DNA of 64,000 bases from Giardia intestinalis (Eukaryota): the NCBI GenBank assembly GCA_000002435.2, contig CM018793.1. The stretch is one strand, 5' to 3'. A program made the position numbers and the translations under genes. This document shows positions 37,265 to 64,000 of this stretch, piece by piece; positions within the stretch are counted from its first letter, which is position 1; every line of letters begins with the position of its first letter. The notes under the pieces are model-generated. The model made no database searches. It saw only the letters and a list, made by a program, of their open reading frames with translations, and was not told where the DNA came from.

Positions 37265-37555
37265 GCATAACTTTCCAGTTTTATTTCGGGCTTCGCTTAT
37301 GTCTTGAAGGCTTCATTTTTACATATTACATTAAACGTATCGGATTGGATAATTTATTAAAAGTTTAAATTGCTATCTGTGCCCGCATCCTGTGTAATGT
37401 AGAATTATCGTTATACTGATTGCTTAGGGATGAAGACCTGCAGGTGCTCAGATCCCATATTTTGGTGAATACGTTTGGAGAAAAGCCTACCTAGGAGCTG
37501 TTGTAGACATGTAAATTCTACCTCAAAAAAGAGCTCATTACTCAGTGGGATTTGG

Positions 37556-40357: not shown

Positions 40358-40427
40358 CTGCATGCATAATTTTAGAGTTTCCCGCGTTAAAAAATCCATT
40401 AAATTCCGCCAATGTGGAAAATTTAAA

Positions 40428-42872
40428 ATGTTCAAGATCAAGGACTCCGACAGCTGGTTTTCTGCGGTCTCCGAAGGGAAGGCGAAGCTCGTTGCAGCGT
40501 CGGCCAAGTCCTTCAAGGGTTTTCGTAATGAGAACCAAGAAACTGCTCTCATCCTAGCAGCGAAGCTCAACCATCCGGATATTGTTGAAGCCTTAGCTGT
40601 GCACGAGGCGAGGCACACAGACAGCAATGGATATACTGCGCTTATGTGGGCAGCTAAGAACGGAGACGCCAGAATGGTCCGGGCCCTCATTAATAGCGAG
40701 CGTGATATTGTCTTGCCCGATGGGCGTGATGCGCTATCCTTGGCTGCAGAGGCGGGAAATTTGGAAACCACAAATGCCCTTGTCCCCTTCTTCGAGCTCG
40801 CTAGGCCTTCTACTGGACTTTCGGCTCTTGACTATGCGGCCCGTGCAAACCATGGAGAAGTAGTTAAGGCGCTCATTGCAGAGTTCGATCCGGCTGTGCA
40901 CGTACTCGAAGCAGCACTTCGGCAGGCAGAGATTATGAACCACGGGGAGCTAGCGTCCTACCTTAGGAGTGTTGTTGACTCTAAAGCAGATGGAGTTTCC
41001 CCCATAGGCTCCGCGGGTAGTAATTTTGTCTCTCGCCTAGCAACTCCGAATACTCATTCGCCGTGTGCTAGTGTTGTTCCTTTACAGACACACGCAAGCT
41101 ATGCAGACTGCGAACGGATGGCGGCCTATGCGCACAAGCTTGAGGATGAACTTAGGGAGGAGCGCAGTAAGACGCATATCGATGCTAACCGCATTCTAGG
41201 TAAGTCATACACCGACGAGGATCTTCGCATGTACATTGCGACAATGGAGGCCAAATTGGAAGCATCGGATCGTGAGCGTGTAAAGCTGCACGCAGAGATC
41301 ATGGAGCTTCGTCGGCACTACGGAGATTCGAAGAAGGCTGGTGCAGGTGATATGAATGTGGTTTCTCGTTCTCTAACCGAGCTTCAAAAGCTTAGAAAAG
41401 AAAACTCTGACCTTCAGGATGTTATCAAGAGCCAGACTAGCCGCATAAATGGTTTGGTTGCAACTAGCAAGCGTCAGAGTGAGTTGTTGCGTAGCATTAA
41501 CAAGTCTGGTGCTGATGGAGATAGCGCAATGGGGGCGACCAAGAGTATGCGTGAGTTACATAGTCTGGAGGAAAAGTTGCAGGAAACGGACACACAGTAT
41601 ACAAAACTAAGGAAAGAGCATGGGCGTTTGCGTGGAGAGCATGAAGATCTTAAGGAAAAGTACGAGGAGGCTTGCAAAATGCTGGCCACCAAAGAAAATG
41701 GCGAAGATGCAGTAAAGACCCTGAATGCGATGGAGTCTAAGTCAAGGGCGGAGCGTCAGAGAATGAATGACACGAAAATGATGTCGCACCGAAATAGAAG
41801 TAGCGCTAGCCCGAGCCATCGTGCTTGTGCTGAGCCTAAGAGCATAATTGAATCTCCCAAACGTGGTAGTTCTTATGGAACGATGGGACCGCCTAGACGC
41901 ACCGTTAGCAGGCTGACTGAGCAGAACATTCCTGTAATTGCGCCATCTAGTGGGGATGCAGATAGTTTCGCTGCCGCATTTGATAACACGTTGTCGAAGA
42001 CTCCAAAGGACTCCACTTATAAAACAGCCGGAACATATCAGGCGATAAAGAGTTCCAAGGAAAAAGACAAGGAAATTGCCCAACTTAAGGATGAGCTTTT
42101 TAATTGCTATTCTGCAGACGAGGTTGAAAAGCTGCACCGTGTAATTGAACTCCGTGAGGCTCAACTCGCAGATGTTACAAAGGAGCGTGATGCCTTAGGT
42201 GCTTACCTGGATCGTTACAACACGTCGCAGTATAATGCGCAACAGGTGGCAGACGAGAACGACCACTTGAAGCGAAGGATTGCTGCACGCGACGAGGCCA
42301 TCCATAAGATGACACGTGAGCTTTGTACCGTGGCGCGTGCCTCTAGATCAACCATGGAGTCCAAATTGCAGGAAAAGGACCAAGAAATTGCACGACTTAA
42401 TGAGAAGATTACTGCCTTACATGATGATTATATGCGTTTGAAGAATGACCCCAATATTCCGCAGCAGACCGCGCTCGGGATCGAGTCCCGGGAGAAGTAC
42501 CTCCGGATGATCGCAGACACGGAGCAGCAGAATCACGTCTACCGGAAGCTCATCCAGGACCAGCAGGCGCAGATCGGCATGCTGGTCGCGCAGCTGGGGG
42601 CGGCCGAGAGCCAGGCGCAAGCCCTCGCTGCTGACGGGCTTCGGGGGTCGGCAACCTGGGCCCCCAGCGAGGCGCAGCCAGCTCTGGGGCCGTTCCCGCA
42701 GTGCCCGCCCCAGTCCTCTGCCCGCAGCCCTCTGGATGCCCGTCTGCAGGACGTCGAGATCCTCGAGCGGGAGCAGATGGCGGCACAAAGCGGCGCAAAG
42801 GCAGCCTCTGACCGTCCCTGGACACCACCGAGCGCAGAGGGCTGTGCGCGGCCCGCAAGCTCATACTCATAA
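40428..42872 (+). CDS. Ankyrin plus coiled-coil protein; the last ~137 codons lie inside the left inverted repeat
   Basis: 'MFKIKDSDSWFSAVSEGKA' follows the canonical 'ggaaaatttaaaATG' (the ORF-track start at 40362 is only 5 nt after the previous stop). N-terminal ANK repeats, then coiled coil. The sequence shifts abruptly to GC-rich at 42462, the repeat boundary, and the frame continues as ...QQTALGIESREKYLRMIADTEQQNHVYRK...ASSYS*. Confidence 0.8.
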   Translation: MFKIKDSDSWFSAVSEGKAKLVAASAKSFKGFRNENQETALILAAKLNHPDIVEALAVHEARHTDSNGYTALMWAAKNGDARMVRALINSERDIVLPDGRDALSLAAEAGNLETTNALVPFFELARPSTGLSALDYAARANHGEVVKALIAEFDPAVHVLEAALRQAEIMNHGELASYLRSVVDSKADGVSPIGSAGSNFVSRLATPNTHSPCASVVPLQTHASYADCERMAAYAHKLEDELREERSKTHIDANRILGKSYTDEDLRMYIATMEAKLEASDRERVKLHAEIMELRRHYGDSKKAGAGDMNVVSRSLTELQKLRKENSDLQDVIKSQTSRINGLVATSKRQSELLRSINKSGADGDSAMGATKSMRELHSLEEKLQETDTQYTKLRKEHGRLRGEHEDLKEKYEEACKMLATKENGEDAVKTLNAMESKSRAERQRMNDTKMMSHRNRSSASPSHRACAEPKSIIESPKRGSSYGTMGPPRRTVSRLTEQNIPVIAPSSGDADSFAAAFDNTLSKTPKDSTYKTAGTYQAIKSSKEKDKEIAQLKDELFNCYSADEVEKLHRVIELREAQLADVTKERDALGAYLDRYNTSQYNAQQVADENDHLKRRIAARDEAIHKMTRELCTVARASRSTMESKLQEKDQEIARLNEKITALHDDYMRLKNDPNIPQQTALGIESREKYLRMIADTEQQNHVYRKLIQDQQAQIGMLVAQLGAAESQAQALAADGLRGSATWAPSEAQPALGPFPQCPPQSSARSPLDARLQDVEILEREQMAAQSGAKAASDRPWTPPSAEGCARPASSYS

Positions 42873-44797
42873 GTAAACACTTCTGTAAGTACTTCTGATA
42901 AAAAGAATTAAAATATAAATATATCTGGCGCGCCCCCAGTCCGGCGTAGTATAACGGCTAGAATGGTTGGTTCTCACCCAACAGATCCGGGTTCGATTCC
43001 CGGCGCCGGAGCGTTTCCCGCCTTCCTTCGTCTTAGCATACGCCGCCCCACGGTGGGCCCAGACCCTAAGTATCGATTTGCAAAGACAGCTGACCGGACT
43101 GTCGCACAAGTAAGTAAGCTCGTGATCTGCAGCCAGTGATGATGCATCCATATTTAGTGAACAATAAACCAATTCCTAGAACTCCGGAATATAACTGGCT
43201 GTACTATGAGCCGACACAAGCCTTGAAGATAGATCTGCCACAACGTAATTAACTCTGCGCTGGGCGCCAAAGGTAGCCAGTCTATAGTGAGCTAGGCTCC
43301 ACAGGTCACATTTAGTATTGCATGCATGAAACGTGCTACTCCTCTACACGGCAAGTATAGCTTGTGAAAGAATGCACACTTGATTCTCGGTGTCTAGCTG
43401 CAAAGGTGATACATCTTTTAATGCATAGATGAATGGGTTTTTTGTAGCTCAGATAAAAAAGGTAGAATGGGCATTGGAAGAGCAAAACTCTAGAAGATAG
43501 GTTGGCATTCATTAAAAGGTAAGCTTCGAAGTGCACAAGTCTTTCAACCACATTCTCACTTTTAGTTTGAAGATTGTTCCACCTCATACAATCGGATTCT
43601 TTTGCAATCGCTGAAATTGTCATACCATCTCTTTCTAATTCTAACTTAATAGGAAACGCAACTACAAAGCCATTGGTTAATGGCCAACGTCACTATCATT
43701 ACATGAGCTATTAACTACTCATCTCACCATCTTTGTACTATGTTTAGCTTATCTTTTCGAAGAAGACTAGCCCGAGGTCAAATCTCTATAGCACCAGCTG
43801 GGCGTACCTCATAGGTATGCAGATTACTAGAAGTATACATTAATACTATGCTTAGTTTCCCCTTTAGTTATATTATTTACCTACATAGTAGAGAGATTGT
43901 AAATCGCTCGGAAGAAGAGTGAACTTCTAAAACAAATACTTAGTAGAATAAGATATGCGACACTACTGTTAGCTGTAGCGTCTACCGCAAAAGCGCCGGC
44001 CCAACGAATCTTTCTACAGTGGCGCGCAAAGTGTACTCGCGCACGCTACTGTCCTGACCTAGACATGGGACAGAAAATAGCCACTGATAAGAATTTATAC
44101 CTAACAAGATTTAGAGCGGTTTCAGTCGAATACTAATAAAGCGGAACCATTTATCTAGTCTAACTAGGGTAAGAATAGGTCCCGATTGTTCCAGTTTCAC
44201 AGAAACAGGAACGTAGATCTGCTCAAGCTGTCAATGGCCGGAGCCCGCTGGCCTGAGATTTATGCTTGGATGCCATCAAACTAAATGTGAGCCCGATGGT
44301 CCCGCCTACAAGAACGGTCACGCCAAGGGTGATCCCTGTGATCGCGCCTGGGCCGAGGCGGCGCTTGACCGACGAGCCTCCGCAGTAGTTCTCCAGGGGG
44401 AGGTTTCCGTCCGCACAACGGAGGCAGAGGACGGCGCCTGACCCTGCCTGCGCCTGGCAGAGCCCGCACCCGTGGATGCCTGCCATCCGAAGCCCCTGGG
44501 GCGCCGTCTGGTCGCAGGGCACACAGTCCCGGGGGCCTCCGAGGGGCGTCGCCTGGAAGTACCTGTCGGCACAGGCCAGACAGCTGGCTGCCGACGAGCA
44601 GGCGGCGCACGGAGAGGGGCATGCCAGGCAGCGGTCGCCCGCCAGGTGCCAGCCCCTCTTGCAGGAGGTGCAGACACCCCCGTCGCAACGGGCGCAACCG
44701 GCCGCGGTGCACGGGCTGCACGAGCCCCCGGAGAGCCCGTAGCCTTCCGCGCAGGCGTGGCACGTGACCCCCGCCCTTGCCCGGTCTGCCGCGCACA
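42462..44797. repeat. Left arm of a 2,336-bp inverted repeat (partner at 52022-54357)
   Basis: Reverse-complement identity with 52022-54357 runs the whole length as far as I can read it, and every translated ORF I compared is identical between the arms. The outer boundary maps to 42462 / 54357 (ccgCAGCAGACC versus tcaCAGCAGACC). The inner boundary maps to 44797 / 52022. Contents: 3' end of gene 40428-42872, tRNA-Glu, 1.2 kb of AT-rich non-coding DNA, 3' end of the HCMP gene. Confidence 0.85.
42940..43011 (+). tRNA. tRNA-Glu (anticodon CUC)
   Basis: 72-nt cloverleaf. Acceptor stem tccggcg / cgccgga, fully paired. Anticodon stem gttgg / ccaac with loop ttCTCac. T-arm ccggg-ttcgatt-cccgg. Overall very similar to eukaryotic tRNA-Glu (same T-arm, CTCAC loop). 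Confidence 0.85.
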
Positions 44798-47700
44798 CGG
44801 CACAGTGTGGAATTCCCGTGAAACCGTTCTGGCTTGTCACATCATCGCACGGGCGGCAATCGGACGGAGCAGAGACAGAGCTCTGCGTCGAGTAGTATCC
44901 CTGGCTGCACGCGCTGCATGTGGTGGCAGATGTGCAGCGGAGGCAACCAGGCGCGCAGGGGATGCATTCGCTGCCGCTTGTCCAGAAGCCCTCTGTCGGA
45001 CAGTCGCGGGGGCACAGGAGCATCCCGTCCAGAGTCAGCGCCTTGCGTCCACTCTCGCACGCCAGACAGACGACCGGGCCCACGCGATCAGCGAGGCGGC
45101 ACCTCTGGCAGCCGTCGACCCCTGTCCATCCTCCGCCTGCCCCCGCGTCGTTGCACAGCAGGCACCTGCTGGCGCTGGAGTGGGTCGGCCTGACCTCGAC
45201 GGCATTCTCGTTGCATCCTATGCACGCTATACTTTGCTCCCTACAGAGGCATTGCGGAGGGCAGATCTTGGGGACGCACTCTTCGCCGTTCCAGATGTGC
45301 TCTGGGACGCAGCTGGTGCATCTCGTGCTTGTACACGTTGCACAGTTGTCGATCGCGCACGGGATGCAGCTGTCAGCGGCCTCGTAGTACGTCATTGGAC
45401 AGACTGCATGGCAGGTCACCTCTGTCCCGGTCGAGAGCGCCTTGTAGCCCGGGAGACAGTCCTTGCACAGTGCGGGGCCCGCTACCTTCGGAGCCTCACA
45501 GAGCCTGCAGCCACTCACTCCCACCCAGCTGTCCCTGCCAGACGTGTCCGAGCAGGCAAGACAGGCTCCCAGGCCAGGCGTGGTGAACGTGCCAAAGTAT
45601 CCCTCGGCGCACTCTTTGCATTTATCAGCCCCCATACCATCGCACGTCTTGCACGCTGGGTGGCACGCAATGCAGGACGTGCTCTGGAGATAGTATCCGG
45701 CCCTGCAAGCAGTGCACGTGTTGGGGTCGTCTACGCACGCGCCGCAGTTGGGATCGGAGCAGCGCACGCAGCCCTTATCTGTCTTGGAAAAGCCTGCCTT
45801 GCATGCAGTGCACCCGGACGTCGACTCCGTGGTGTCTCCACAAATGCTCGTCCCCGGCGCCCTTTCCTTTGTGTAGCAGGCGCCCTCGAAGAGGAACATC
45901 CCGTCTCCGCAGTGCGAGCACACGCCCTTGCTGCAGATAAGTCCCTCCTTCGGCTCTGCGCACGTGCCATCCAGAGGAACCTCTCCGTCGATCAGGCAGC
46001 GCCCGCAGACGACCTGGCCGTCGACGACCACTGCATCGCGCTCATCGCAGATACCCGTGCCGGGGTACTCGCCTGCGGAGTAGCAGCCCCCCTGGTGGAG
46101 GAAGTAGCTCCCTCGGCACGCGGTGCAGCGGCCCTTCTTGGCGTCCTTTACGCATGGACCGGCAAGTGAGCGAGCTTCTCCAGGATAGAGTGTGCAGACG
46201 CCGTCGATCGGCACATAATCACTCGACGCGCACTGCGAGCACAGAGACCCGTCCATGACTGTGCAGGAGCCCCAACTGCAAGCGTCCTGCCCCACTCTTT
46301 TGCAGGGCTTCGTGCAGTATGCCCCGGCCCCGACGCCTGTCAGCGTGTAGGGCTGAATGCATTCTGTGCAGTACTTCACGTCTATCTCGCAGCTGGCGCA
46401 GTTGGAGACGGCGCAGGACATGCACGTCAGCGTCTCCTTGTTGTGACGGTAGCCGGGTCTGCACCGCCGACAGGTTCCGGCATCGCGGCCTGTTCCAAGG
46501 ACTTCGCAAATCCCACTTCCAGGAGTAGTCGTGATATCATAGCAGCCTCCCTCGTGGAAGAAGTAGTTCTCGGGACATATGACGCATAAACCGCTGGAGC
46601 ACGAGACACCATCTGGCACATCCTTTGTACACAGGCCATTTATTGGAAACTCTCCTGCAAGATTGCACTGCTTGCAATATGTGCGCCTTCCGACTGTCAG
46701 AAGCTCCCTACAAATGCCAGACCCGGGAATCGCGGCAGGGTCATAGCACCCGCCCATGTAGAGCATGTATCCGCGTAGGCACCCTGTGCAGACGCCCTTC
46801 CCCTTCTCGCAAACATAGTCTGTGTCATGCCCCGTGCAAGCCCCGTTGATCGGCCACTCGTCATCCAGCGCACACCTGGAACAGTACAGCGAGCCCATCG
46901 CCGTACAGCTGCCAGCCTTACAGTTACCAGACTCTGATCTACTGTCGTTGCAGCTTTGGATACACCGCGAGCCGTCCTCGCTAGGAATGTGCTTGTCCTT
47001 GCATCGCGTGCAGATGACCCTCTTTGGTGTCTCGCTTGGATAGCACTCTGTGCAGCCGTCAACGCCCGTGTATCCATTTGTTGCACCTGTATCATTACAT
47101 AGGATGCAGGACTCCTTTGTGGGATCGAGCAGGTCTGTGCTGTAGTACCCGGAGGCACACGATGTGCACACCCCTGCAACCGCTGAGTCGACGGCCACCG
47201 CGCAGACCACCGTTCCAGGCGAGCGTCCTATCTCGTAGCACCCCCCGGCGTGCAGGAAGAACCTTGGCCCGCAGCGTGTGCACGACGTGGGGCTTGGTGT
47301 GGCAGCGACACATTGCGATCTGATTGCCCTAGTGTTAGCCAATGCAACGCACGAGCCGTCGATCGGGACTTCCCCGTCTCGCTTGCATTGCTTGCAGATC
47401 GTGTACGGGCCCAGCGTAGCCTGGTGCTGGCTGTCACATATGGCAGTCCCAGCTGTTGCGCCTTTAGCATAGCAGCCCCCATAGTAGAGGAGGTGCGTGT
47501 CCTTGCAAGCCGCACACGTCCCGCTGGATGGGGTTGTACGGATGCAAGCGTCGTCATTTGCCTTGCACTTTCCGTCGATGATAACGCTGCTTAATAGCGC
47601 ACAGCGGCTGCATGCGAGCGTGCCGTTGACATTGCAGTATCCTGCAGCACAGGACGTGGGAAGCAATCCAACGGGGCATTCCTCAGTACATATGTTATTC

Positions 47701-50700
47701 CTCAGTGCAAATCTATCCTTGCAGACCTTACACCCAGTACTATCGCACTTCTTACACCCGGGTGTGCATGCAACACACGAGTTCCCACTGGCATAGTACC
47801 CATCCTGGCAAGAGGCGCAGGTATTTGCCGCATCGCACGTCAAGCAGTGGAGCACGCTGCAAGCAACACACTTTCCGGCCGCAAGATAGAAGCCGTCTGC
47901 GCATCCCGTGCATTTTGTTGCACTATCCTGGCACGTCTTGCAGCTCTTATCACACATCTGACAGAACTCAGCAGACTCATACATCCCATCCGGACACTTA
48001 GTAAAGCATGCAACCGTTGCAGGACTTCCATCCTTGGTTATCTGGAATGACTTAACACCCTGTTTGCACGACCTGCAGATGCCATCTCCCTTGACGGTGC
48101 AGTCATCCGAGACCTTGCACTCCCCATCAACGGGCACCTCATCCTTCTGCTTACACTTCGCACAAAACGACCCTGCGCCCGATGTCACGACATCCTGGGC
48201 GTCGCAGATGTCCCCCGCCTCGAACGACCCCGCTTCATAGCAGCCACCCTTGTACTTGATGTATCTGTGGGTGCAGTATTTGCAGGTGCCATTAGCTTGT
48301 TTATATTGTATGCACACGCCTGCGGCCACTGAAGCACACACGCCGTTGACTGGGCCCTCGGCGTCAGCAGCGCACTGGGAGCAGTAGAACGTGCCCAGGA
48401 CATCACACTTGTCCTTTCTGCACCTGTGCTCCTTGGGGTCTGCCTCTGCCTCAACGCACGTTTGCACGCACTCCGTTCCCCCGTTCATTGGTCTGTAGAA
48501 CTGCTCGCAGGCAACACAGACCAGGAGTCCGTTGGAAACCTTGCAGCTCTTGCAGTGGGGTATGCCCTTCAGCGTGTCGCTGTTCTCTGTGCACGGAACA
48601 CACGAGTCGCTGATACTTGAGCGGTCGGGGGGCGCGTAGTATCCCTCTTTACAAATATCACAGATCCCATTGTCAGATCCGATGCTTTTGCATAGTATAG
48701 TTCCGGGAGCAAGGTCTGCTGAGACACAACTCCCTTTAAGCAGAAAATGATTGTCAACACAATAATAACATCGTCCAGTAGGCACACGGGCCAAAACGCA
48801 CGGAGAAAGCTTGCTGTCAGACATAGGAATGCAGTGCCCATTAACTGGCAGATCAGATAAAATGCTACATCGGAAGCAATACGTCACGCCATCCATTACA
48901 GCATACTCGCCACAAATGGCGTTTCCTGGATAGGTCTTTGGATTATAGCAACCATTCTTATAATAAAAGAATAATCCTGCGCATCCAGTGCATGTACCAT
49001 TTGGCACACCCGACTTCTTACATATATTCTCCTTATCGACACTAGTACATTTGCCATCGATAAGAGCATCTGTATTCAACGCGCACTTTGAACAAAAGGT
49101 AGCTCCAAGCACATTACAAAAATCAACGGCACACTGACCTGATCTAGGTTGTAGCGAGTCAGTCGGGAGAGGGCAGCTTTCCTCGCATACACCGTTAACC
49201 AATAAATAGCGATCTAGACAGCTTGTGCAGTGTCCTGGACCAGAGATTAGGGGAGCTAAACACGTTCTACAAAAAGCTATACCGGTGTAGCCGAAAATTC
49301 CACCTACATCGCTACAGTGAATGCACGATTGAATCGTTGAGCTTCGAACAGGATTGAGATAATAAGTTGGTCCACATACTTCGCAAACGCCTGCTCTTGC
49401 TTTAGTGCATATCTGTGGATAAAATTCTGGTGTAAAGCAAACTGTACGGTGCAAGAAATATCCAGCTCCACAACCAGTGCACACTCCCTCTTTGCACGTA
49501 TTTCCATAAGTTTCGGTGGTGCAAGATCCGTTAATAGGATATTCTGTTTCGAGAGTGCATTTCTTACAATATGTAAATCCATAACCTGTAAGTGTGTGTT
49601 CCTTTTCACATATCGGTATTACTGGCTTAATCGTATTGTAACATCCACCGTAGTAGAGAAGATAGCCTTTTGAGCATCTCCGGCATCTACCGCCCTCCAT
49701 AACAGCACACTCGGGAGCATCTTCCCGTAGAGGCCGGCAAACCCCATCTATGGGAACCTCACGTTCTATACTACACCTTTCGCAGAATGTCTTATCACGA
49801 ACAACACATCCTCCGTAAATGCAGCCCCCAGGCGTGAGTTCCTCCGTGCAAGCTTTAACACATGAGTCCTTACCTTCATTCTTTTGAAGCTGATAACTAT
49901 AAGCGCAACTATTGCAAACGTCCACGCCCCCATCACAGTTTACGCAGTACTTGATGTTACATGGTCTGCATTCTGATCCAACATGGGTATATCCAGAGGC
50001 ACAAACTGAACAAGTAGCTGTGTCGTCGACATCCTTACAAATACTGAGGCCGATGGGCGTTCCTTTTTCATAGCATCCTCCTTTGTAAGGAAAATACCGA
50101 GGTGGACACTCTGTGCAGCGGCCAGATACTACTTTGGCGCCCATTAAGGCAGATGTGCACTGTCCATTTATGGGGCACTCATTATCATTTGCGCAACAAG
50201 AACAAAGTGCAGACGAGAAAATGTTGCAATGATCAGACTTACATGACCCCGGAGCAAGACCGTTTGTCCAGCACGATATTTCGCAGTGATTTTCTGTTAG
50301 GAGATATCCCCTTTCGCAGACTGTGCATTGCGCTCGTTGGCCTCGTGGAAGAGGTAAGCATTTTGCACAGTGAGCTATGCCAGCGTTATCGTACTGAAGA
50401 AGTACATCATTACAATACTTGCACATACCTTTCCCCATCGAAAACACTTGAAAGAATATTTCTGGAGCACAAGAAGTACAATCATTCGCGTTAGGACCAA
50501 GGCATGAAGCACAATTTGAATGGCATGGAATACAATCTCCTCTGTTGCGAAAATAGTTGTCTACACACGCTTTGCATTTCCCAGCATTATCCACCTCGTT
50601 ACATATGACGTTTCCTGGAGCAGATTCTGGGGAATAACATCCACCTTGGTAAATGAAGTAATTCTTACCACAAGAGGTACACTTAATAGAGACAGGTGTT

Positions 50701-51812
50701 GGTAGACCGCCGGCTGAATCTCGACAACCAGAAGTTACAACTAGCGGATTATTGTATGGCACACATACTCCGTTGATTGGAACGAAACCAGGCGTACCAC
50801 ATTTCGCACAAAAGGTTGCACCCCTAATATCAGTAGTGTAGGCACATGCCTTAAGTCCTAGCTCAGTATCCACACGATAACATCCGCCTTGAAAAAGGAT
50901 GTATCCCTTTCCACAGTTATCACACATTCCCAACGAGATGGATATATGGAGACAAATATTCTGGTCATTAGAAGTGCAAACTCCGTTAATCGGTACTTCG
51001 GTGCCAAGAGAACAGTGGGCACAGAGTTTGTTCTCAAAAGCAGTACATCCATCTTCAGCACACTTTCCAGACTTGGCTATTTTACTTTTATCACAAGTGA
51101 GAATACATGTACGAGTCTGTGAATCATATGAATAGTTATCAATACAAAGAAGACACTCATTAGGCGTTGCACCCGTACACATCAAGCAATTGCTAGGGCA
51201 AGTAAGACACTGATTTCCAGCCAAATAATATTGTGCTTGACAAGAGAGGCATTTCAAAGAATCACTGGTACTCATTGTACAAGAGCGACAATTTTCTATA
51301 CCGTAAGGTTTATCTGAACACCTTTTACAGAGAGACCCATCAAGAAAACGATCCGGAGGACAACTCAGGCACTGATTTTCAGAACTTCCAGAACAAGAAC
51401 TGCAGTGAGCATGACAGGTCTTACAAGTCTGAGGAGTTGCTTGAGTGTCGAGATAGTAACCTAAAGAGCATATTTTGCAAAGATTCCTGGCTAGATCAAC
51501 GCAAATAAGATTTCCAGGACTATAAAGTATATTGTAACACCCGCCCTCATGAATGAAATAATTCTTTTCTACACATGAAGAACAGGTTTTAGCAGAGTTT
51601 TTAAGAGGCTTACCTGCCTCAGAAGCGCAGCCGGAGGCCACAGCCCTGGGGTCGTCGTACGGGATACAGAGTCCGTTTATAGGAACCTCACCAGGGGTGG
51701 CACACTCAGAACAATACCGGCCCTCTAAAATAGTGCATTTTCCTATAGCGCACTCTCCAGGTCGATTCCCATGGGTACATGAGAGTGCAAGTCCAAAAAT
51801 GATCGCCAGCAT
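44223..51812 (-). CDS. High-cysteine membrane protein (HCMP, VSP-like), 2,529 aa. The 3' 575 nt lie in the left inverted repeat.
   Basis: Signal peptide 'MLAIIFGLALSCTHG'. Hundreds of CXXC / CXC motifs. A recurring 'GGCY' motif (YQGGCY, FQGGCY, LYYGGCY, ...). A single C-terminal TM 'ITGITLGVTVLVGGTIGLTFSLMA' with a short tail 'SKHKSQASGLRPLTA'. This is HCMP-like rather than VSP-like because there is no CRGKA ending. ATG at 51812 with AT-rich upstream. Stop TGA at 44223-44225. Composition switches from AT-rich codons (5' ~3.1 kb) to very GC-rich (3' ~4.4 kb) near 48650. Confidence 0.9.
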   Translation of the reverse strand: MLAIIFGLALSCTHGNRPGECAIGKCTILEGRYCSECATPGEVPINGLCIPYDDPRAVASGCASEAGKPLKNSAKTCSSCVEKNYFIHEGGCYNILYSPGNLICVDLARNLCKICSLGYYLDTQATPQTCKTCHAHCSSCSGSSENQCLSCPPDRFLDGSLCKRCSDKPYGIENCRSCTMSTSDSLKCLSCQAQYYLAGNQCLTCPSNCLMCTGATPNECLLCIDNYSYDSQTRTCILTCDKSKIAKSGKCAEDGCTAFENKLCAHCSLGTEVPINGVCTSNDQNICLHISISLGMCDNCGKGYILFQGGCYRVDTELGLKACAYTTDIRGATFCAKCGTPGFVPINGVCVPYNNPLVVTSGCRDSAGGLPTPVSIKCTSCGKNYFIYQGGCYSPESAPGNVICNEVDNAGKCKACVDNYFRNRGDCIPCHSNCASCLGPNANDCTSCAPEIFFQVFSMGKGMCKYCNDVLLQYDNAGIAHCAKCLPLPRGQRAQCTVCERGYLLTENHCEISCWTNGLAPGSCKSDHCNIFSSALCSCCANDNECPINGQCTSALMGAKVVSGRCTECPPRYFPYKGGCYEKGTPIGLSICKDVDDTATCSVCASGYTHVGSECRPCNIKYCVNCDGGVDVCNSCAYSYQLQKNEGKDSCVKACTEELTPGGCIYGGCVVRDKTFCERCSIEREVPIDGVCRPLREDAPECAVMEGGRCRRCSKGYLLYYGGCYNTIKPVIPICEKEHTLTGYGFTYCKKCTLETEYPINGSCTTETYGNTCKEGVCTGCGAGYFLHRTVCFTPEFYPQICTKARAGVCEVCGPTYYLNPVRSSTIQSCIHCSDVGGIFGYTGIAFCRTCLAPLISGPGHCTSCLDRYLLVNGVCEESCPLPTDSLQPRSGQCAVDFCNVLGATFCSKCALNTDALIDGKCTSVDKENICKKSGVPNGTCTGCAGLFFYYKNGCYNPKTYPGNAICGEYAVMDGVTYCFRCSILSDLPVNGHCIPMSDSKLSPCVLARVPTGRCYYCVDNHFLLKGSCVSADLAPGTILCKSIGSDNGICDICKEGYYAPPDRSSISDSCVPCTENSDTLKGIPHCKSCKVSNGLLVCVACEQFYRPMNGGTECVQTCVEAEADPKEHRCRKDKCDVLGTFYCSQCAADAEGPVNGVCASVAAGVCIQYKQANGTCKYCTHRYIKYKGGCYEAGSFEAGDICDAQDVVTSGAGSFCAKCKQKDEVPVDGECKVSDDCTVKGDGICRSCKQGVKSFQITKDGSPATVACFTKCPDGMYESAEFCQMCDKSCKTCQDSATKCTGCADGFYLAAGKCVACSVLHCLTCDAANTCASCQDGYYASGNSCVACTPGCKKCDSTGCKVCKDRFALRNNICTEECPVGLLPTSCAAGYCNVNGTLACSRCALLSSVIIDGKCKANDDACIRTTPSSGTCAACKDTHLLYYGGCYAKGATAGTAICDSQHQATLGPYTICKQCKRDGEVPIDGSCVALANTRAIRSQCVAATPSPTSCTRCGPRFFLHAGGCYEIGRSPGTVVCAVAVDSAVAGVCTSCASGYYSTDLLDPTKESCILCNDTGATNGYTGVDGCTECYPSETPKRVICTRCKDKHIPSEDGSRCIQSCNDSRSESGNCKAGSCTAMGSLYCSRCALDDEWPINGACTGHDTDYVCEKGKGVCTGCLRGYMLYMGGCYDPAAIPGSGICRELLTVGRRTYCKQCNLAGEFPINGLCTKDVPDGVSCSSGLCVICPENYFFHEGGCYDITTTPGSGICEVLGTGRDAGTCRRCRPGYRHNKETLTCMSCAVSNCASCEIDVKYCTECIQPYTLTGVGAGAYCTKPCKRVGQDACSWGSCTVMDGSLCSQCASSDYVPIDGVCTLYPGEARSLAGPCVKDAKKGRCTACRGSYFLHQGGCYSAGEYPGTGICDERDAVVVDGQVVCGRCLIDGEVPLDGTCAEPKEGLICSKGVCSHCGDGMFLFEGACYTKERAPGTSICGDTTESTSGCTACKAGFSKTDKGCVRCSDPNCGACVDDPNTCTACRAGYYLQSTSCIACHPACKTCDGMGADKCKECAEGYFGTFTTPGLGACLACSDTSGRDSWVGVSGCRLCEAPKVAGPALCKDCLPGYKALSTGTEVTCHAVCPMTYYEAADSCIPCAIDNCATCTSTRCTSCVPEHIWNGEECVPKICPPQCLCREQSIACIGCNENAVEVRPTHSSASRCLLCNDAGAGGGWTGVDGCQRCRLADRVGPVVCLACESGRKALTLDGMLLCPRDCPTEGFWTSGSECIPCAPGCLRCTSATTCSACSQGYYSTQSSVSAPSDCRPCDDVTSQNGFTGIPHCAVCAADRARAGVTCHACAEGYGLSGGSCSPCTAAGCARCDGGVCTSCKRGWHLAGDRCLACPSPCAACSSAASCLACADRYFQATPLGGPRDCVPCDQTAPQGLRMAGIHGCGLCQAQAGSGAVLCLRCADGNLPLENYCGGSSVKRRLGPGAITGITLGVTVLVGGTIGLTFSLMASKHKSQASGLRPLTA

Positions 51813-52020
51813 GTGATGCTATTTTTACATAAACGCCTTTATACATTAGAATCACACATCATAAATTTGGCTTTTCCAGAGCTAATTTCCTATTTTTGAA
51901 TACAAAAATATATTCCCATCTTTCAATCTGGTCTATTTATCACACTACAGTAGTGTTATTTAAACGCTCGTATGTGATGCTCCTAAAGATGGTTGAATCG
52001 TGCTAATTTTGCATTGTATT

Positions 52021-52596
52021 ATGTGCGCGGCAGACCGGGCAAGGGCGGGGGTCACGTGCCACGCCTGCGCGGAAGGCTACGGGCTCTCCGGGGGCTCGTG
52101 CAGCCCGTGCACCGCGGCCGGTTGCGCCCGTTGCGACGGGGGTGTCTGCACCTCCTGCAAGAGGGGCTGGCACCTGGCGGGCGACCGCTGCCTGGCATGC
52201 CCCTCTCCGTGCGCCGCCTGCTCGTCGGCAGCCAGCTGTCTGGCCTGTGCCGACAGGTACTTCCAGGCGACGCCCCTCGGAGGCCCCCGGGACTGTGTGC
52301 CCTGCGACCAGACGGCGCCCCAGGGGCTTCGGATGGCAGGCATCCACGGGTGCGGGCTCTGCCAGGCGCAGGCAGGGTCAGGCGCCGTCCTCTGCCTCCG
52401 TTGTGCGGACGGAAACCTCCCCCTGGAGAACTACTGCGGAGGCTCGTCGGTCAAGCGCCGCCTCGGCCCAGGCGCGATCACAGGGATCACCCTTGGCGTG
52501 ACCGTTCTTGTAGGCGGGACCATCGGGCTCACATTTAGTTTGATGGCATCCAAGCATAAATCTCAGGCCAGCGGGCTCCGGCCATTGACAGCTTGA
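52021..52596 (+). pseudogene. 3' fragment of an HCMP gene (191 codons: a few CXXC repeats, a TM segment and a tail), identical to the HCMP C-terminus. It begins with an ATG placed exactly at the repeat boundary, so it could be expressed as a mini-HCMP.
   Basis: From 52022 the sequence is the reverse complement of 44223-44797. The HCMP codon gtg (V) reads atg here. Upstream is an AT-rich 'gctaattttgcattgtattATG'. The 20 nt just upstream still show weak similarity to the HCMP (LILHCIMCAADR versus GIPHCAVCAADR). That suggests a diverged HCMP copy whose 3' end was homogenised with the left copy. Confidence 0.5.
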
Positions 52597-53807
52597 GCAG
52601 ATCTACGTTCCTGTTTCTGTGAAACTGGAACAATCGGGACCTATTCTTACCCTAGTTAGACTAGATAAATGGTTCCGCTTTATTAGTATTCGACTGAAAC
52701 CGCTCTAAATCTTGTTAGGTATAAATTCTTATCAGTGGCTATTTTCTGTCCCATGTCTAGGTCAGGACAGTAGCGTGCGCGAGTACACTTTGCGCGCCAC
52801 TGTAGAAAGATTCGTTGGGCCGGCGCTTTTGCGGTAGACGCTACAGCTAACAGTAGTGTCGCATATCTTATTCTACTAAGTATTTGTTTTAGAAGTTCAC
52901 TCTTCTTCCGAGCGATTTACAATCTCTCTACTATGTAGGTAAATAATATAACTAAAGGGGAAACTAAGCATAGTATTAATGTATACTTCTAGTAATCTGC
53001 ATACCTATGAGGTACGCCCAGCTGGTGCTATAGAGATTTGACCTCGGGCTAGTCTTCTTCGAAAAGATAAGCTAAACATAGTACAAAGATGGTGAGATGA
53101 GTAGTTAATAGCTCATGTAATGATAGTGACGTTGGCCATTAACCAATGGCTTTGTAGTTGCGTTTCCTATTAAGTTAGAATTAGAAAGAGATGGTATGAC
53201 AATTTCAGCGATTGCAAAAGAATCCGATTGTATGAGGTGGAACAATCTTCAAACTAAAAGTGAGAATGTGGTTGAAAGACTTGTGCACTTCGAAGCTTAC
53301 CTTTTAATGAATGCCAACCTATCTTCTAGAGTTTTGCTCTTCCAATGCCCATTCTACCTTTTTTATCTGAGCTACAAAAAACCCATTCATCTATGCATTA
53401 AAAGATGTATCACCTTTGCAGCTAGACACCGAGAATCAAGTGTGCATTCTTTCACAAGCTATACTTGCCGTGTAGAGGAGTAGCACGTTTCATGCATGCA
53501 ATACTAAATGTGACCTGTGGAGCCTAGCTCACTATAGACTGGCTACCTTTGGCGCCCAGCGCAGAGTTAATTACGTTGTGGCAGATCTATCTTCAAGGCT
53601 TGTGTCGGCTCATAGTACAGCCAGTTATATTCCGGAGTTCTAGGAATTGGTTTATTGTTCACTAAATATGGATGCATCATCACTGGCTGCAGATCACGAG
53701 CTTACTTACTTGTGCGACAGTCCGGTCAGCTGTCTTTGCAAATCGATACTTAGGGTCTGGGCCCACCGTGGGGCGGCGTATGCTAAGACGAAGGAAGGCG
53801 GGAAACG

Positions 53808-53879
53808 CTCCGGCGCCGGGAATCGAACCCGGATCTGTTGGGTGAGAACCAACCATTCTAGCCGTTATACTACGCCGGA
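53808..53879 (-). tRNA. tRNA-Glu (anticodon CUC), second copy in the right repeat arm
   Basis: Exact reverse complement of 42940-43011. Confidence 0.85.
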
Positions 53880-53946
53880 CTGGGGGCGCGCCAGATATAT
53901 TTATATTTTAATTCTTTTTATCAGAAGTACTTACAGAAGTGTTTAC

Positions 53947-54312
53947 TTATGAGTATGAGCTTGCGGGCCGCGCACAGCCCTCTGCGCTCGGTGGTGTCCA
54001 GGGACGGTCAGAGGCTGCCTTTGCGCCGCTTTGTGCCGCCATCTGCTCCCGCTCGAGGATCTCGACGTCCTGCAGACGGGCATCCAGAGGGCTGCGGGCA
54101 GAGGACTGGGGCGGGCACTGCGGGAACGGCCCCAGAGCTGGCTGCGCCTCGCTGGGGGCCCAGGTTGCCGACCCCCGAAGCCCGTCAGCAGCGAGGGCTT
54201 GCGCCTGGCTCTCGGCCGCCCCCAGCTGCGCGACCAGCATGCCGATCTGCGCCTGCTGGTCCTGGATGAGCTTCCGGTAGACGTGATTCTGCTGCTCCGT
54301 GTCTGCGATCAT
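53947..54312 (-). pseudogene. 3' gene fragment: a copy of the last ~135 codons of the ankyrin/coiled-coil gene 40428-42872. It sits just downstream of, and out of frame with, gene 54363-59345.
   Basis: Translation 'MIADTEQQNHVYRKLIQDQQAQIG...ARPASSYS' is identical to the C-terminus of the 40428-42872 product. The TAG of the upstream gene lies 6 nt outside the repeat. Confidence 0.6.
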
Positions 54313-54362
54313 CCGGAGGTACTTCTCCCGGGACTCGATCCCGAGCGCGGTCTGCTGTGAAA

Positions 54363-61684: not shown

Positions 61685-61686
61685 CA

Positions 61687-63882: not shown

Positions 63883-64000
63883 CCTAGTAACGGCTGCAGA
63901 CTCGAAATATGCATCTGGCGACTCGTCATGATTTATTGTTTCGAACTGAGCACTCTCAACTAACCGTTGCTGCGAATGACTATCGGTAGCGAAATAGTTA

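What the first reader, a model, noticed from the sequence alone, without database searches (positions are those of the whole stretch)
44223..51812. The HCMP gene is compositionally mosaic: an AT-rich 5' third and a very GC-rich 3' two-thirds
From the ATG at 51812 down to about 48650 the codons are AT-rich. Nearly all antisense frames there contain stops.

From about 48650 to the stop, the sequence is so GC-rich that several 60-565-aa stop-free antisense and alternate frames appear (44281-48841).

A sharp intragenic composition shift like this is the expected footprint of a chimeric gene assembled by recombination between two different cysteine-rich surface-protein genes. The GC-rich 3' part ends inside the inverted repeat.
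Basis: seen in the sequence. Interest (0 to 1): 0.55.

Follow-up and report, generated by a model that had tools for sequence, protein, structure and literature searches.

The report
Paralog gene conversion makes HCMP mosaic
The sharp AT-to-GC switch inside this giant Giardia surface-protein gene is real: it marks, to within a few codons, where a 4.3-kb stretch starts being copied back and forth between three sister genes on different chromosomes, and that copying probably also made the stretch GC-rich.

Summary
The CDS at 44223-51812 (-) is Giardia intestinalis WB GL50803_113319, a TMK-like high-cysteine membrane protein ("alpha"). Its GC3 jumps from 0.35 to 0.71 at codon 1057 (window 48641).

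The interpretation, recombination between cysteine-rich paralogs, is supported but needs refining.
- Against its syntenic assemblage-E (P15) ortholog, the gene diverges evenly (~87% nt) along its whole length. P15 has the same GC3 step, so the mosaic predates the A/E split.
- Against the two dispersed paralogs (beta 113416, gamma 114180), the 5' third is ~51% nt identical, with synonymous sites saturated, and it groups by paralog.
- Codons 1058 to ~2504 are 96-98% identical within a genome but only ~86% between genomes. This is concerted evolution by interlocus gene conversion, independent in A and E.
- The last ~25 codons are paralog-specific again. The breakpoint test peaks at codon 1053 (chi2 = 1169).

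Within the tract, AT-to-GC changes are shared among copies far more often than GC-to-AT changes (p = 1.4e-6). This fits GC-biased gene conversion as the cause of the GC-richness. That step is inferred, not shown.

A 2.36-kb inverted repeat, essentially perfect (two mismatches at its outer tip), duplicates the gene's 3' end, a tRNA-Glu gene and the neighbouring gene's tail. It is homogenised separately in each lineage.

This is a new example of a known kind of process.

The parts
44223..51812 (-). Complete CDS of the TMK-like high-cysteine membrane protein 'alpha' (GL50803_113319; 2529 aa, 13% Cys, 110 CXXC motifs).
   Evidence: The ORF is intact. The translation is identical to WB protein XP_001709278.1/KAE8305131.1 (P0213). 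The C-terminal TM segment plus tail ...TIGLTFSL MASKHKSQASGLRPLTA, 110 CXXC and 13% Cys match ORF 113319 in Davids 2006 (PMC1762436).
48642..51812 (-). Paralog-specific, AT-rich 5' third (codons 1-1057, GC3 0.35).
   Evidence: Identity to the P15 syntenic ortholog is 86.9% nt. Identity to beta/gamma is ~51% nt / 45% aa, with 4-fold sites at chance identity (0.23 versus 0.25 expected). Divergence from DH is 0.6%, about the genome-wide AI/AII level.
48641..48653 (-). 5' edge of the conversion tract, coinciding with the GC3 change-point (codons 1054-1058).
   Evidence: P15 alpha and beta are codon-for-codon identical from codon 1058 on, and mismatched upstream of 1054. WB/DH alpha versus DH beta/gamma are identical from codon 1057/1058. 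The GC3 change-point is codon 1057. The max chi-square breakpoint is codon 1053.
44301..48641 (-). GC-rich tract (codons 1058 to ~2504, ~4.3 kb, GC3 ~0.7 rising to 0.87) shared and homogenised among the alpha, beta and gamma paralogs.
   Evidence: Within a genome: the A copies are 96.5-97.2% nt identical to each other, and P15 alpha-beta are 98.1%. Any A copy versus any E copy is 86.2-87.1%. Synonymous sites are homogenised too (P15 alpha-beta 4-fold identity ~0.98). All 14 possible allele-sharing patterns occur among the four A copies.
44223..44300 (-). Paralog-specific 3' end: second half of the TM helix, the cytoplasmic tail and the stop codon.
   Evidence: Alpha and beta/gamma mismatch at nearly every codon from ~2505 on, whereas alpha of WB and alpha of P15 keep the same tail (...SK(H/N)KSQA(S/N)GLRPLTA).
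42457..44814 (.). Left arm of the inverted repeat. It holds the GC-rich last 138 codons of the upstream ANK/coiled-coil gene (40362-42872 +), a tRNA-Glu(CTC) gene, AT-rich spacer and the last 592 nt of the HCMP CDS.
   Evidence: The repeat is 2358 nt, reported 100% complementary, with 7190 nt between the arms. The exact repeat begins at ~42462. P15 has the same structure (2347-nt arms, 100% identical, 7219-nt spacer). WB and P15 arms are only 69-93% identical, so the arms are homogenised within each lineage.
52005..54362 (.). Right arm of the inverted repeat, lying between the HCMP promoter region and the stop codon of the 1660-aa ANK gene (54363-59345 -).
   Evidence: The DH contig L002 ends inside both arms. 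Short-read contigs L004 and L005 end at its outer edge.
52005..52596 (+). Copy of the last 197 codons of the HCMP. It lies 192 nt upstream of the HCMP start codon and points away from it. In WB it is annotated as a 191-aa 'High cysteine membrane protein'.
   Evidence: An ORF is present at 52000..52596. P0206 (XP_001709275.1) lies on the same 4.02-Mb contig. P15 has the equivalent 178-aa ORF.
42940..43012 (+). tRNA-Glu(CTC) gene in the left arm. Its mirror copy is at 53807-53879 (-).
   Evidence: Rfam RF00005 scores 56.4 bits for both copies. ARAGORN finds both. Both copies are conserved in P15.
44472..46169 (+). 565-aa antisense ORF, a by-product of GC-richness and not a gene.
   Evidence: Stop-triplet density is halved in the non-coding frames of the GC-rich part. 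Synonymous shuffles give longest stop-free runs of 366 +/- 88 (maximum 667) against 575 observed.

Best explanation
The gene is a mosaic of three segments with different genealogies.
- Codons 1-1057 and the last ~25 codons are private to this locus ('alpha') and evolve as ordinary orthologous DNA.
- Codons 1058 to ~2504 (window 44301-48641) form a tract that alpha shares with two dispersed paralogs, beta (GL50803_113416) and gamma (GL50803_114180), on other chromosomes.

Shown:
- Non-reciprocal ectopic recombination (interlocus gene conversion) repeatedly copies patches of this tract between the three genes. The tract therefore evolves in concert within a genome, independently in assemblages A and E.
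- The tract ends at the same codon in both lineages.
- The GC3 step sits on that edge.

Inferred:
- The tract stops where it does because beyond that point alpha and beta/gamma are too diverged (~51% nt) to pair.
- The GC-richness is a consequence of the conversion. New mutations are strongly AT-biased, but GC alleles are preferentially transmitted when mismatched heteroduplex is repaired (GC-biased gene conversion). The converted tract is thereby held far above the mutational equilibrium at which the private 5' third sits.
- An original duplication or chimeric event created the shared tract before the A/E split. Its direction is unknown. Beta has a smoother GC3 profile, which weakly suggests that a beta-like gene was the donor.

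A second homogenising system acts at the same locus. A 2.36-kb inverted repeat, essentially perfect, duplicates the last 592 nt of the gene, a tRNA-Glu gene and the tail of the neighbouring gene.
For: Identity and synteny
- The window protein equals WB XP_001709278.1. WB has three TMK-like HCMPs of 262-266 kDa (PMC1762436), on contigs of 4.02, 1.54 and 1.97 Mb.
- The alpha locus is syntenic in P15: window 44370-64000 aligns collinearly at 84.5%. The beta locus is syntenic between DH and P15. Gamma lies at a third locus.

Ortholog comparison
- WB-alpha versus P15-alpha is uniform, ~0.87 aa / 0.87 nt in every 100-codon window. P15-alpha has the same GC3 step, 0.37 to 0.66.

Paralog comparison
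- N-part: alpha versus beta/gamma 0.51 nt.
- C-part: 0.965-0.972 among the four A copies, 0.981 for P15 alpha-beta, and 0.862-0.871 for A versus E regardless of paralog.
- The tail is paralog-specific again.

Boundary
- P15 alpha and beta are identical from codon 1058. The A copies are identical from codon 1057/1058. The GC3 change-point is 1057. The max chi-square is 1169 at codon 1053.

Conversion is ongoing and patchy
- WB-alpha versus DH-alpha is 0.6% diverged in the N-part (genome-wide AI/AII is 0.8-0.9%; PMC4570179) but 3.4% in the tract, no closer than WB-alpha versus DH-beta.
- Every allele-sharing pattern occurs among the A copies.
- In one patch, codons ~1655-1750, P15 alpha-beta identity drops to 0.90.

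GC bias
- In the tract, polarised by P15, GC-to-AT derived alleles occur in 1/2/3 copies at 106/39/14 sites. AT-to-GC derived alleles occur at 20/20/25 sites. Fisher p = 1.4e-6; third positions alone give p = 1.6e-7.
- Equilibrium GC implied by singletons is 0.23. That implied by shared alleles is 0.57. Current GC is 0.61.
- The same mRNA carries GC3 0.35 and 0.71, which argues against expression-linked codon selection.
- Amino-acid content shifts as GC pressure predicts: Ala 5.7 to 9.4%, Asn 5.4 to 2.2%, Ile 5.2 to 3.2%.
- Beta/gamma N-parts, which exist as two 96.7%-identical copies in A, carry GC where P15-beta has AT at 238 sites versus 145 for the reverse. Single-copy alpha N-parts are symmetric, 201 versus 184.
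- The neighbouring gene's GC3 jumps from 0.52 to 0.92 exactly where it enters the inverted repeat, in both WB and P15.
Against: Against GC-biased conversion as the cause of the GC-richness:
- The non-coding core of the inverted-repeat arms (about 43000-44200) is homogenised as perfectly as the rest but stays AT-rich, 0.36-0.49.
- The allele-sharing skew is strong at third positions but only a trend at first and second positions (OR 0.44, p = 0.076). Selection for GC-ending codons confined to this part is therefore not formally excluded.
- P15-beta's N-part has GC3 ~0.54 although no second P15 copy is known. Part of the GC-richness could simply be inherited from a GC-richer donor gene.
- Polarisation by P15 can be wrong where P15 changed in parallel. 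My estimate is that this explains about 5-7 of the 45 shared AT-to-GC sites. This is an inference.
- Net recent change in the tract is towards AT: 159 GC-to-AT versus 65 AT-to-GC.

Limits on the conversion evidence:
- WB beta and gamma DNA could not be fetched. A-lineage nucleotide comparisons therefore mix WB alpha with DH copies.
- DH and P15 are draft assemblies.
Confidence: 0.75

Rival explanations
1. A single ancient chimera with inherited composition. One recombination or duplication event before the A/E split fused an AT-rich 5' part to the 3' two-thirds of a GC-rich beta-like gene. The GC-richness is simply that of the donor, and conversion bias plays no role.
For: - The step is already present in P15.
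- Beta has a smoother, GC-richer profile throughout: N-part GC3 0.54 in P15 and ~0.62 in DH.
- Recent net change in the tract is towards AT.
- An initial event of this kind must have happened under any model.
Against: - A single old event predicts that paralogs within a genome are at least as diverged as orthologs. Instead the tract is 96-98% identical within genomes and ~86% between them, in both lineages.
- Allele sharing among the A copies is reticulate.
- The tract's GC3 (0.69, rising to 0.87) exceeds that of beta's own N-part.
- AT-to-GC alleles spread among copies more than GC-to-AT alleles (p = 1.4e-6).
Confidence: 0.15
2. Selection, not recombination, shapes composition. The membrane-proximal two-thirds is under selection for GC-ending codons or for an Ala/Gly-rich composition, and strong purifying selection keeps the paralogs alike.
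For: - The allele-sharing skew is concentrated at third codon positions.
- The AT-rich non-coding core of the inverted repeat is not GC-enriched although it is homogenised.
Against: - Orthologs diverge equally in both parts, ~87% nt, with 4-fold-site identity ~0.7-0.8 in both. The 3' part is therefore not under stronger constraint.
- Synonymous sites are homogenised between paralogs, 4-fold identity 0.98, which purifying selection on the protein cannot do.
- Both parts lie on one mRNA, so expression-level codon selection should not differ between them.
- The step falls on the conversion edge within ~4 codons.
Confidence: 0.07
3. Assembly artefact. Reads from the paralogs were collapsed or mixed, creating false near-identity of the 3' parts and a falsely perfect inverted repeat.
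For: - DH and P15 are 454/Sanger drafts.
- The DH alpha contig ends in both repeat arms and carries an in-frame stop.
- Short-read contigs break at the repeat.
Against: - Three independent assemblies (WB chromosome-scale reference, DH, P15) give the same picture.
- The copies are similar but not identical, with 2-3.5% well-distributed differences. They sit in different unique flanks.
- The GC3 step itself is a property of a single sequence and is seen in all alpha copies.
- The repeat has the same architecture in WB and P15.
Confidence: 0.03

Closest known systems
Recombination among Giardia vsp genes and identical inverted vsp pairs (Adam et al. 2010, PMC2996952)
   Same: - It involves cysteine-rich surface-protein gene families in the same genome (WB).
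- Statistical evidence (GENECONV, DualBrothers) shows recombination in the conserved 3' regions of vsp genes.
- There are 14 pairs of identical genes in head-to-head or tail-to-tail inverted arrangement. This parallels the essentially perfect inverted repeat at this locus.
   Different: - The vsp tracts tested there were 234-657 bp at the 3' end. Here the tract is 4.3 kb and covers two-thirds of a 7.6-kb non-VSP gene, shared between three loci on different chromosomes.
- The tract has a sharply defined 5' edge that is conserved between assemblages.
- The inverted repeat here does not duplicate whole genes. It duplicates 592 nt of the gene's 3' end, a tRNA gene and the tail of the neighbour, with a 7.2-kb spacer rather than 2-4 kb.
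- That paper does not use the terms 'GC content' or 'gene conversion'.
GC-biased gene conversion enriching GC in multigene families under concerted evolution (rDNA: Escobar, Glemin and Galtier 2011, cited in PMC10123126; histone and hsp70 families, from my own knowledge)
   Same: - GC3 enrichment is confined to the sequence that undergoes conversion between copies.
- Mutation is AT-biased and is opposed by GC-biased transmission.
- The amino-acid composition is dragged along.
   Different: - Here the contrast lies inside one gene, with a private 5' third as internal control.
- The organism has no demonstrated meiosis, so conversion may be mitotic or ectopic.
- The only mention of gBGC for Giardia that I found is a speculation about rRNA genes.
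- Bias in repair is inferred from allele sharing, not measured.
TMK-like group of high-cysteine membrane proteins (Davids et al. 2006, PMC1762436)
   Same: The gene is one of the three listed members (113319, 113416, 114180). Mass, cysteine content, CXXC count and C-terminal tail all match.
   Different: A term search of that paper found no mention of GC content or recombination. In what I read, it groups the three by motif content and does not describe the partial concerted evolution.
Arm-to-arm gene conversion in large palindromes (primate Y-chromosome palindromes, plastid inverted repeats; from my own knowledge)
   Same: The arms are essentially identical within a genome although the orthologous arms of WB and P15 differ by 7-31%.
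   Different: The arms are much smaller (2.36 kb). They embed a gene's 3' end that also converts with copies on other chromosomes. The AT-rich core of the arms shows no GC enrichment.

Membership tests
High-cysteine membrane protein (HCMP), TMK-like group (Davids 2006) | At least 10% cysteine, more than 400 aa, type-1 membrane topology with a C-terminal TM helix and a short tail | tested here: met
   The protein has 13.0% Cys, 2529 aa and 110 CXXC motifs, and its C-terminus is ...AITGITLGVTVLVGGTIGLTFSL MASKHKSQASGLRPLTA. These are the same values and the same tail as ORF 113319 in PMC1762436.
High-cysteine membrane protein (HCMP), TMK-like group (Davids 2006) | Identity with a listed member | tested here: met
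   The window translation is identical to P0213 (XP_001709278.1, 'High cysteine membrane protein TMK-like', WB).
Variant-specific surface protein (VSP) | Conserved C-terminal CRGKA tail | tested here: not met
   The tail is MASKHKSQASGLRPLTA. The Pfam VSP domain PF03302 is shared by HCMPs and does not discriminate.
Concerted evolution by interlocus gene conversion | Paralogs within a genome are more alike than orthologs between genomes, in more than one lineage | tested here: met
   In the tract, A copies are 0.965-0.972 identical, P15 alpha-beta 0.981, and A versus E 0.862-0.871. Protein-level comparison that includes WB beta and gamma gives 0.964-0.975.
Concerted evolution by interlocus gene conversion | Discrete tract edges, with orthology-type phylogeny restored outside them | tested here: met
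   The 5' edge is at codons 1054-1058 in both lineages and the 3' edge at about codon 2505. Informative sites are 1217:145 upstream and 30:526 inside the tract.
Concerted evolution by interlocus gene conversion | Synonymous sites are homogenised, so the similarity is not merely protein conservation | tested here: met
   P15 alpha-beta 4-fold-site identity is 0.93-1.00 in the tract, against 0.0-0.5 upstream.
Concerted evolution by interlocus gene conversion | Multiple patchy exchanges rather than one duplication | tested here: met
   All 14 sharing patterns occur among the 4 A copies. The orthologous pattern WBa+DHa (10 sites) is no commoner than DHa+DHb (13) or DHb+DHg (13). There is a 0.90 patch in P15 at codons ~1655-1750.
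GC-biased gene conversion (gBGC) | GC enrichment is confined to the converted sequence | tested here: inconclusive
   Met for the HCMP tract (GC3 0.35 to 0.71 at the tract edge). Met for the neighbouring gene's tail at the repeat edge (0.52 to 0.92). Not met for the AT-rich non-coding core of the repeat arms (0.36-0.49).
GC-biased gene conversion (gBGC) | AT-to-GC derived alleles reach higher frequency or copy number than GC-to-AT ones | tested here: met
   AT-to-GC alleles are in 1/2/3 copies at 20/20/25 sites, and GC-to-AT alleles at 106/39/14 sites (Fisher p = 1.4e-6). The result holds without the DH alpha copy (p = 3.3e-6).
GC-biased gene conversion (gBGC) | The bias also acts at sites not under codon-usage selection (first and second positions, non-coding DNA) | tested here: inconclusive
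   First and second positions show the same direction, OR 0.44, p = 0.076. The amino-acid shift is in the GC-pressure direction. The non-coding repeat core is not enriched.
GC-biased gene conversion (gBGC) | Direct demonstration of GC-biased mismatch repair in heteroduplex DNA | not testable with these tools
   This needs conversion-tract sequencing in crosses, mutation-accumulation lines or reporter assays.

The most novel reading that the evidence does not exclude
Giardia has no demonstrated meiosis and its capacity for recombination is debated. Under this reading it has strong GC-biased ectopic gene conversion that measurably reshapes codon and amino-acid composition in its surface-protein families. 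This locus would then be a natural within-gene experiment for measuring the bias: private AT-rich third, converted GC-rich two-thirds, one promoter, one mRNA. It could also explain GC-rich islands elsewhere in the genome, including the very GC-rich rDNA.
Probability: 0.5. Interest if true: 0.6.

Novelty: new member of a known kind. Interest (0 to 1): 0.5.

Why it matters
- **Family structure.** At least one HCMP subfamily is not a set of independently diverging duplicates. A 4.3-kb membrane-proximal block is kept nearly identical among three genes on different chromosomes. The membrane-distal third and the cytoplasmic tail stay gene-specific.
- **Practical consequences.** Orthology calls, SNP and heterozygosity maps, read mapping and typing markers will be misleading in this block. 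It probably contributes to the SNP 'hot spots' reported around HCMPs (PMC4570179).
- **Antigen design.** The shared block is the conserved target and the distal third is the specific one.
- **Evolutionary interest.** The locus gives unusually clean evidence that ectopic homologous recombination is active in Giardia after the AI/AII split. It also gives a testable case that this recombination is GC-biased, with a built-in control inside a single gene.

Tried and rejected
- **Non-syntenic P15 gene taken as the ortholog.** I first treated P0014 as the ortholog. The bimodal identity (45% / 86%) then looked like a lineage-specific replacement of the 5' third in assemblage A. I rejected this once the syntenic P15 gene was found by walking from the neighbouring 1660-aa gene.
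- **RIP-like hypermutation of the 5' third.** Rejected. At 4-fold sites, identity to beta equals chance (0.228 versus 0.254), and transversions outnumber transitions 83 to 49. That is saturation, not directed GC-to-AT transitions.
- **Simple rate heterogeneity or relaxed constraint.** Rejected. The 5' part is slower than the 3' part in WB versus DH (0.6% versus 3.4%). It is equal in A versus E orthologs. It is far more diverged in paralog comparisons. No single rate ratio fits all three.
- **DH pseudogenisation as the cause of the elevated WB-DH divergence.** Rejected. The excess begins at the GC step, 200 codons before the DH stop codon, and it is symmetric on both lineages.
- **Repeat-bounded 11.9-kb segment as a transposon-like insertion.** Rejected.
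  - No target-site duplication is visible at the junctions.
  - The outer part of the arm is the genuine coiled-coil reading frame of the neighbouring gene.
  - P15 has the same structure at the same place.
- **Word-indexed protein searches.** They missed both P15 genes in one or other search. The exhaustive search lumped all family members into one 50% cluster, so it gave no donor candidate.
- **WB beta and gamma DNA.** It could not be retrieved.
- **Antisense 565-aa ORF.** Treated as a by-product after the shuffle test.

Full report
**What is there**

The window is Giardia intestinalis WB (assemblage A1). The 2529-aa ORF at 44223-51812 (-) translates to exactly WB protein XP_001709278.1 / KAE8305131.1, 'High cysteine membrane protein TMK-like'. 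Four features match ORF 113319 of the three-member 'TMK-like' HCMP group of Davids et al. 2006: the tail MASKHKSQASGLRPLTA, 13% Cys, 110 CXXC motifs and a mass of about 266 kDa (PMC1762436). I call this gene alpha. The other two members are beta (113416, P0205) and gamma (114180, P0209). The three lie on WB contigs of 4.02, 1.54 and 1.97 Mb.

**Check of the observation**

- Bulk GC is 0.40-0.49 from the ATG down to about 48650 and 0.53-0.73 beyond.
- GC3 is 0.27-0.41 for codons 1-1000 and 0.55-0.87 after codon 1050. The best change-point is codon 1057 (window 48641), with GC3 0.353 versus 0.708 and a log-likelihood gain of 160. A pure gradient gains 147, so the profile is a step plus a further rise.
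- The other 20 large ORFs of the window have windowed GC3 of 0.456 +/- 0.086, with a 95th percentile of 0.59. The GC-rich part is therefore the unusual one.
They are explained by a halved stop-triplet density, and the 575-codon stop-free run lies at the upper tail of synonymous shuffles.
- The CDS does end inside an inverted repeat. The arms are 42457-44814 and 52005-54362, 2358 nt, essentially perfect. The junction sequences place the exact repeat edge at about 42462/54357.

**A false start that proved informative**

Protein searches with each part found a DH (assemblage A2) fragment and a full-length P15 (assemblage E) protein, P0014. Aligned to P0014, the gene is collinear but bimodal:
- about 45% aa identity with saturated 4-fold sites up to codon ~1000;
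- about 86% aa identity afterwards, with the switch at the GC3 step.

However, the flanks of P0014 are not syntenic with the window. Walking from the neighbouring 1660-aa ANK gene to its P15 ortholog revealed the true syntenic P15 gene, P0214. P0014 is the P15 ortholog of beta, because its flanks match those of DH beta. Gamma sits at a third locus.

**The genealogies**

| Comparison | N-part (codons 1-1040) | Tract (codons 1058-2480) |
|---|---|---|
| WB alpha vs P15 alpha (orthologs) | 86.9% nt | 86.5% nt |
| Alpha vs beta/gamma (paralogs) | ~51% nt / 45% aa | 96.5-97.2% nt among the four A copies |
| P15 alpha vs P15 beta | ~52% nt | 98.1% nt |
| Any A copy vs any E copy | by paralog only | 86.2-87.1% nt, regardless of paralog |

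- Alpha of WB and alpha of P15 are evenly ~87% identical at both aa and nt level in every 100-codon window. P15-alpha has the same GC3 step, 0.37 to 0.66. The gene is therefore orthologous over its full length, and the mosaic predates the A/E split.
- In the N-part, sequences group by paralog: alpha-alpha 86.9% nt and beta-beta (DH-P15) 85.4%.
- In the tract, sequences group by genome, and 4-fold sites are homogenised as well.
- From about codon 2505 (mid-TM helix) to the stop, the paralog-specific pattern returns.
- The 5' edge is the same in both lineages. P15 alpha and beta are codon-identical from codon 1058, and the A copies from codon 1057/1058.
- For the triplet WB-alpha / P15-alpha / P15-beta, sites supporting orthology versus concerted evolution number 1217:145 upstream and 30:526 inside the tract. 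The maximum chi-square is 1169 at codon 1053.

This is partial-gene concerted evolution by interlocus gene conversion, occurring independently in A and E after their split.

**Conversion is recent and patchy**

- WB-alpha and DH-alpha differ by 0.6% in the private third. That is close to the genome-wide AI/AII figure of 8-9 SNPs per kb (PMC4570179).
- In the tract they differ by 3.4%, with the switch between 48882 and 48581.
- The excess is symmetric on both lineages and starts 200 codons before DH's in-frame TAG.
- In the tract, WB-alpha is no closer to DH-alpha (96.7%) than to DH-beta (96.9%).
- All 14 possible allele-sharing patterns occur among the four A copies.
- P15 has a patch at codons ~1655-1750 where alpha and beta are only 90% identical.
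- A more distant beta-type fragment, P0062, shows the same change of relationship at the same place. It is 74-75% identical to beta/gamma versus 48% to alpha upstream, and 66-69% to all copies downstream.

**Why the tract is GC-rich (inferred)**

I polarised sites that vary among the four A copies using the base shared by both P15 copies.

| Derived change | In 1 copy | In 2 copies | In 3 copies |
|---|---|---|---|
| GC to AT | 106 | 39 | 14 |
| AT to GC | 20 | 20 | 25 |

- The difference is significant (Fisher p = 1.4e-6). It is p = 1.6e-7 at third positions. At first and second positions the direction is the same but p = 0.076. Dropping DH-alpha gives p = 3.3e-6.
- Singletons imply an equilibrium GC of 0.23. 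That is close to the private third's GC3 of 0.35. Shared alleles imply 0.57, and the tract's current GC is 0.61.
- AT-biased mutation opposed by GC-biased spread among copies is the signature of GC-biased gene conversion.

Supporting observations:
- One mRNA carries both compositions, which argues against expression-linked codon selection.
- Amino-acid content shifts as GC pressure predicts, with Ala up and Asn, Ile, Tyr and Phe down.
- Beta/gamma N-parts, which are two 96.7%-identical copies in A, carry GC where P15-beta has AT at 238 sites versus 145 for the reverse. Single-copy alpha N-parts are symmetric, 201 versus 184.
- The neighbouring ANK/coiled-coil gene's GC3 jumps from 0.52 to 0.92 exactly where it enters the inverted repeat, in WB and in P15.

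Counter-evidence:
- The non-coding core of the repeat arms is homogenised yet AT-rich.
- P15-beta's apparently single-copy N-part still has GC3 ~0.54, so donor composition may contribute.
- The first- and second-position test is not significant.
- Some polarisation error is expected. I estimate about 5-7 sites, which is an inference.

I put concerted evolution at about 0.9 and GC-biased conversion as the main cause of the GC-richness at about 0.55.

**The inverted repeat**

Each arm carries four elements:
- the last 138 codons of the upstream ANK/coiled-coil gene;
- a tRNA-Glu(CTC) gene (42940-43012 +; 53807-53879 -);
- about 1.2 kb of AT-rich spacer;
- the last 592 nt of the HCMP.

The right-arm HCMP fragment (52005-52596 +) lies 192 nt upstream of the HCMP start codon. 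It is annotated in WB as a 191-aa gene (P0206).

P15 has the same architecture: 2347-nt arms, 100% identical, a 7219-nt spacer and both tRNA copies. Orthologous arms of WB and P15 are nevertheless only 69-93% identical. The arms are therefore also homogenised within each lineage. DH's alpha contig ends in both arms, and short-read contigs from two other isolates stop at the outer edge.

**Comparison with what is known**

- Adam et al. 2010 reported recombination among short 3' regions of vsp genes and 14 identical inverted vsp pairs in WB (PMC2996952).
- Davids et al. 2006 defined the TMK-like trio.
- Ankarklev et al. 2015 noted SNP-dense regions at HCMPs.
- I found no description of the partial concerted evolution of this trio, or of GC-biased conversion in Giardia beyond a speculation about rDNA.

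The process is of a well-known kind: concerted evolution of a multigene family with GC enrichment. This is a new and unusually clean example, because the private 5' third serves as an internal control.

**Verdict**

The refinement is an ancient, shared and still active conversion tract rather than a one-off chimera.
- Assembly artefact, selection alone, RIP-like mutation and rate heterogeneity do not fit the data.

Noticed in passing
window 42457-44814 and 52005-54362; L008 3447-5793 and 13013-15359: A 2.36-kb inverted repeat, essentially perfect, flanks the HCMP body. It is conserved in architecture in P15, with 100%-identical arms there too. Orthologous arms of WB and P15 are only 69-93% identical, so the arms evolve in concert within each lineage. 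Whether the 7.2-kb segment between the arms can invert is unknown. WB, DH and P15 all show the same orientation.
   Followed up: partly
window 42940-43012 (+) and 53807-53879 (-); L008 3938-4010 and 14796-14868: A tRNA-Glu(CTC) gene sits in each arm of the inverted repeat. It is therefore duplicated at this locus in both WB and P15.
   Followed up: partly
window 42462-42872 (+), tail of ORF 40362-42872; copy at 53947-54357 (-): The ANK/coiled-coil neighbour gene shows its own GC3 step, 0.52 to 0.92, exactly where it enters the inverted repeat. The same is seen in P15 (0.54 to 0.84). The tail is low-complexity and Ala/Pro/Ser/Gln-rich, and unlike its paralogs the gene lacks a C-terminal ANK domain. 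The second copy of this tail abuts the stop codon of the 1660-aa ANK gene in another frame.
   Followed up: partly
window 43000-44200 (and mirror 52620-53820): The non-coding core of the repeat arms is AT-rich (0.36-0.49) and unusually long for a Giardia intergenic region (about 1.35 kb between convergent genes). It is the most diverged part of the arm between WB and P15 (69-77%). Apart from the tRNA, nothing was identified there.
   Followed up: partly
window 52005-52596 (+): The 3'-terminal 197 codons of the HCMP are duplicated just upstream of the gene's own promoter. In WB they are annotated as a separate 191-aa 'High cysteine membrane protein' (XP_001709275.1), and P15 has the equivalent 178-aa ORF. 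It would encode only the last cysteine repeats plus the TM helix and tail. It is probably a fragment kept intact by arm homogenisation.
   Followed up: partly
L002 (DH contig AHGT01000136.1), codon 1280 of the alpha gene (window ~47973-47975): The DH copy has an in-frame TAG where WB has TCT, a difference of two nucleotides. This is why DH's annotated protein is 1279 aa. It could be a real pseudogenising change, a patch imported by conversion or a draft-assembly error.
   Followed up: partly
P0205 (WB beta, GL50803_113416), around residue 2160: WB beta lacks 21 aa (LLCNDAGAGGGWTGVDGCQRC) that are present in alpha, gamma, DH beta and both P15 copies. The deletion lies between two short 'RC' repeats inside the conversion tract.
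   Followed up: no
L004 (SRR21529638) and L005 (SRR3177748), contig ends at window ~54328 and ~54359: Short-read assemblies of another assemblage-A isolate, and of a more distant Giardia lineage (73% aa identity in the ANK gene), both break within ~35 nt of the repeat's outer edge. This suggests the repeat boundary is conserved well beyond assemblages A and E.
   Followed up: no
L006/L007 codons 1-1040 versus L001: The beta and gamma N-terminal thirds are 96.7% identical in DH, except for the first ~30 codons (signal peptide region). They are GC3-richer (~0.62) than P15 beta (~0.54). No gamma was seen for P15. Gamma may be an A-lineage duplicate of beta, or simply missing from the P15 draft.
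   Followed up: partly
window 34178-42872 and 54363-59345: The HCMP cassette is embedded in a run of ANK plus coiled-coil ('Protein 21.1'-like) genes of 1028, 960, 836 and 1660 aa. All have low GC3 (0.35-0.54).
   Followed up: no
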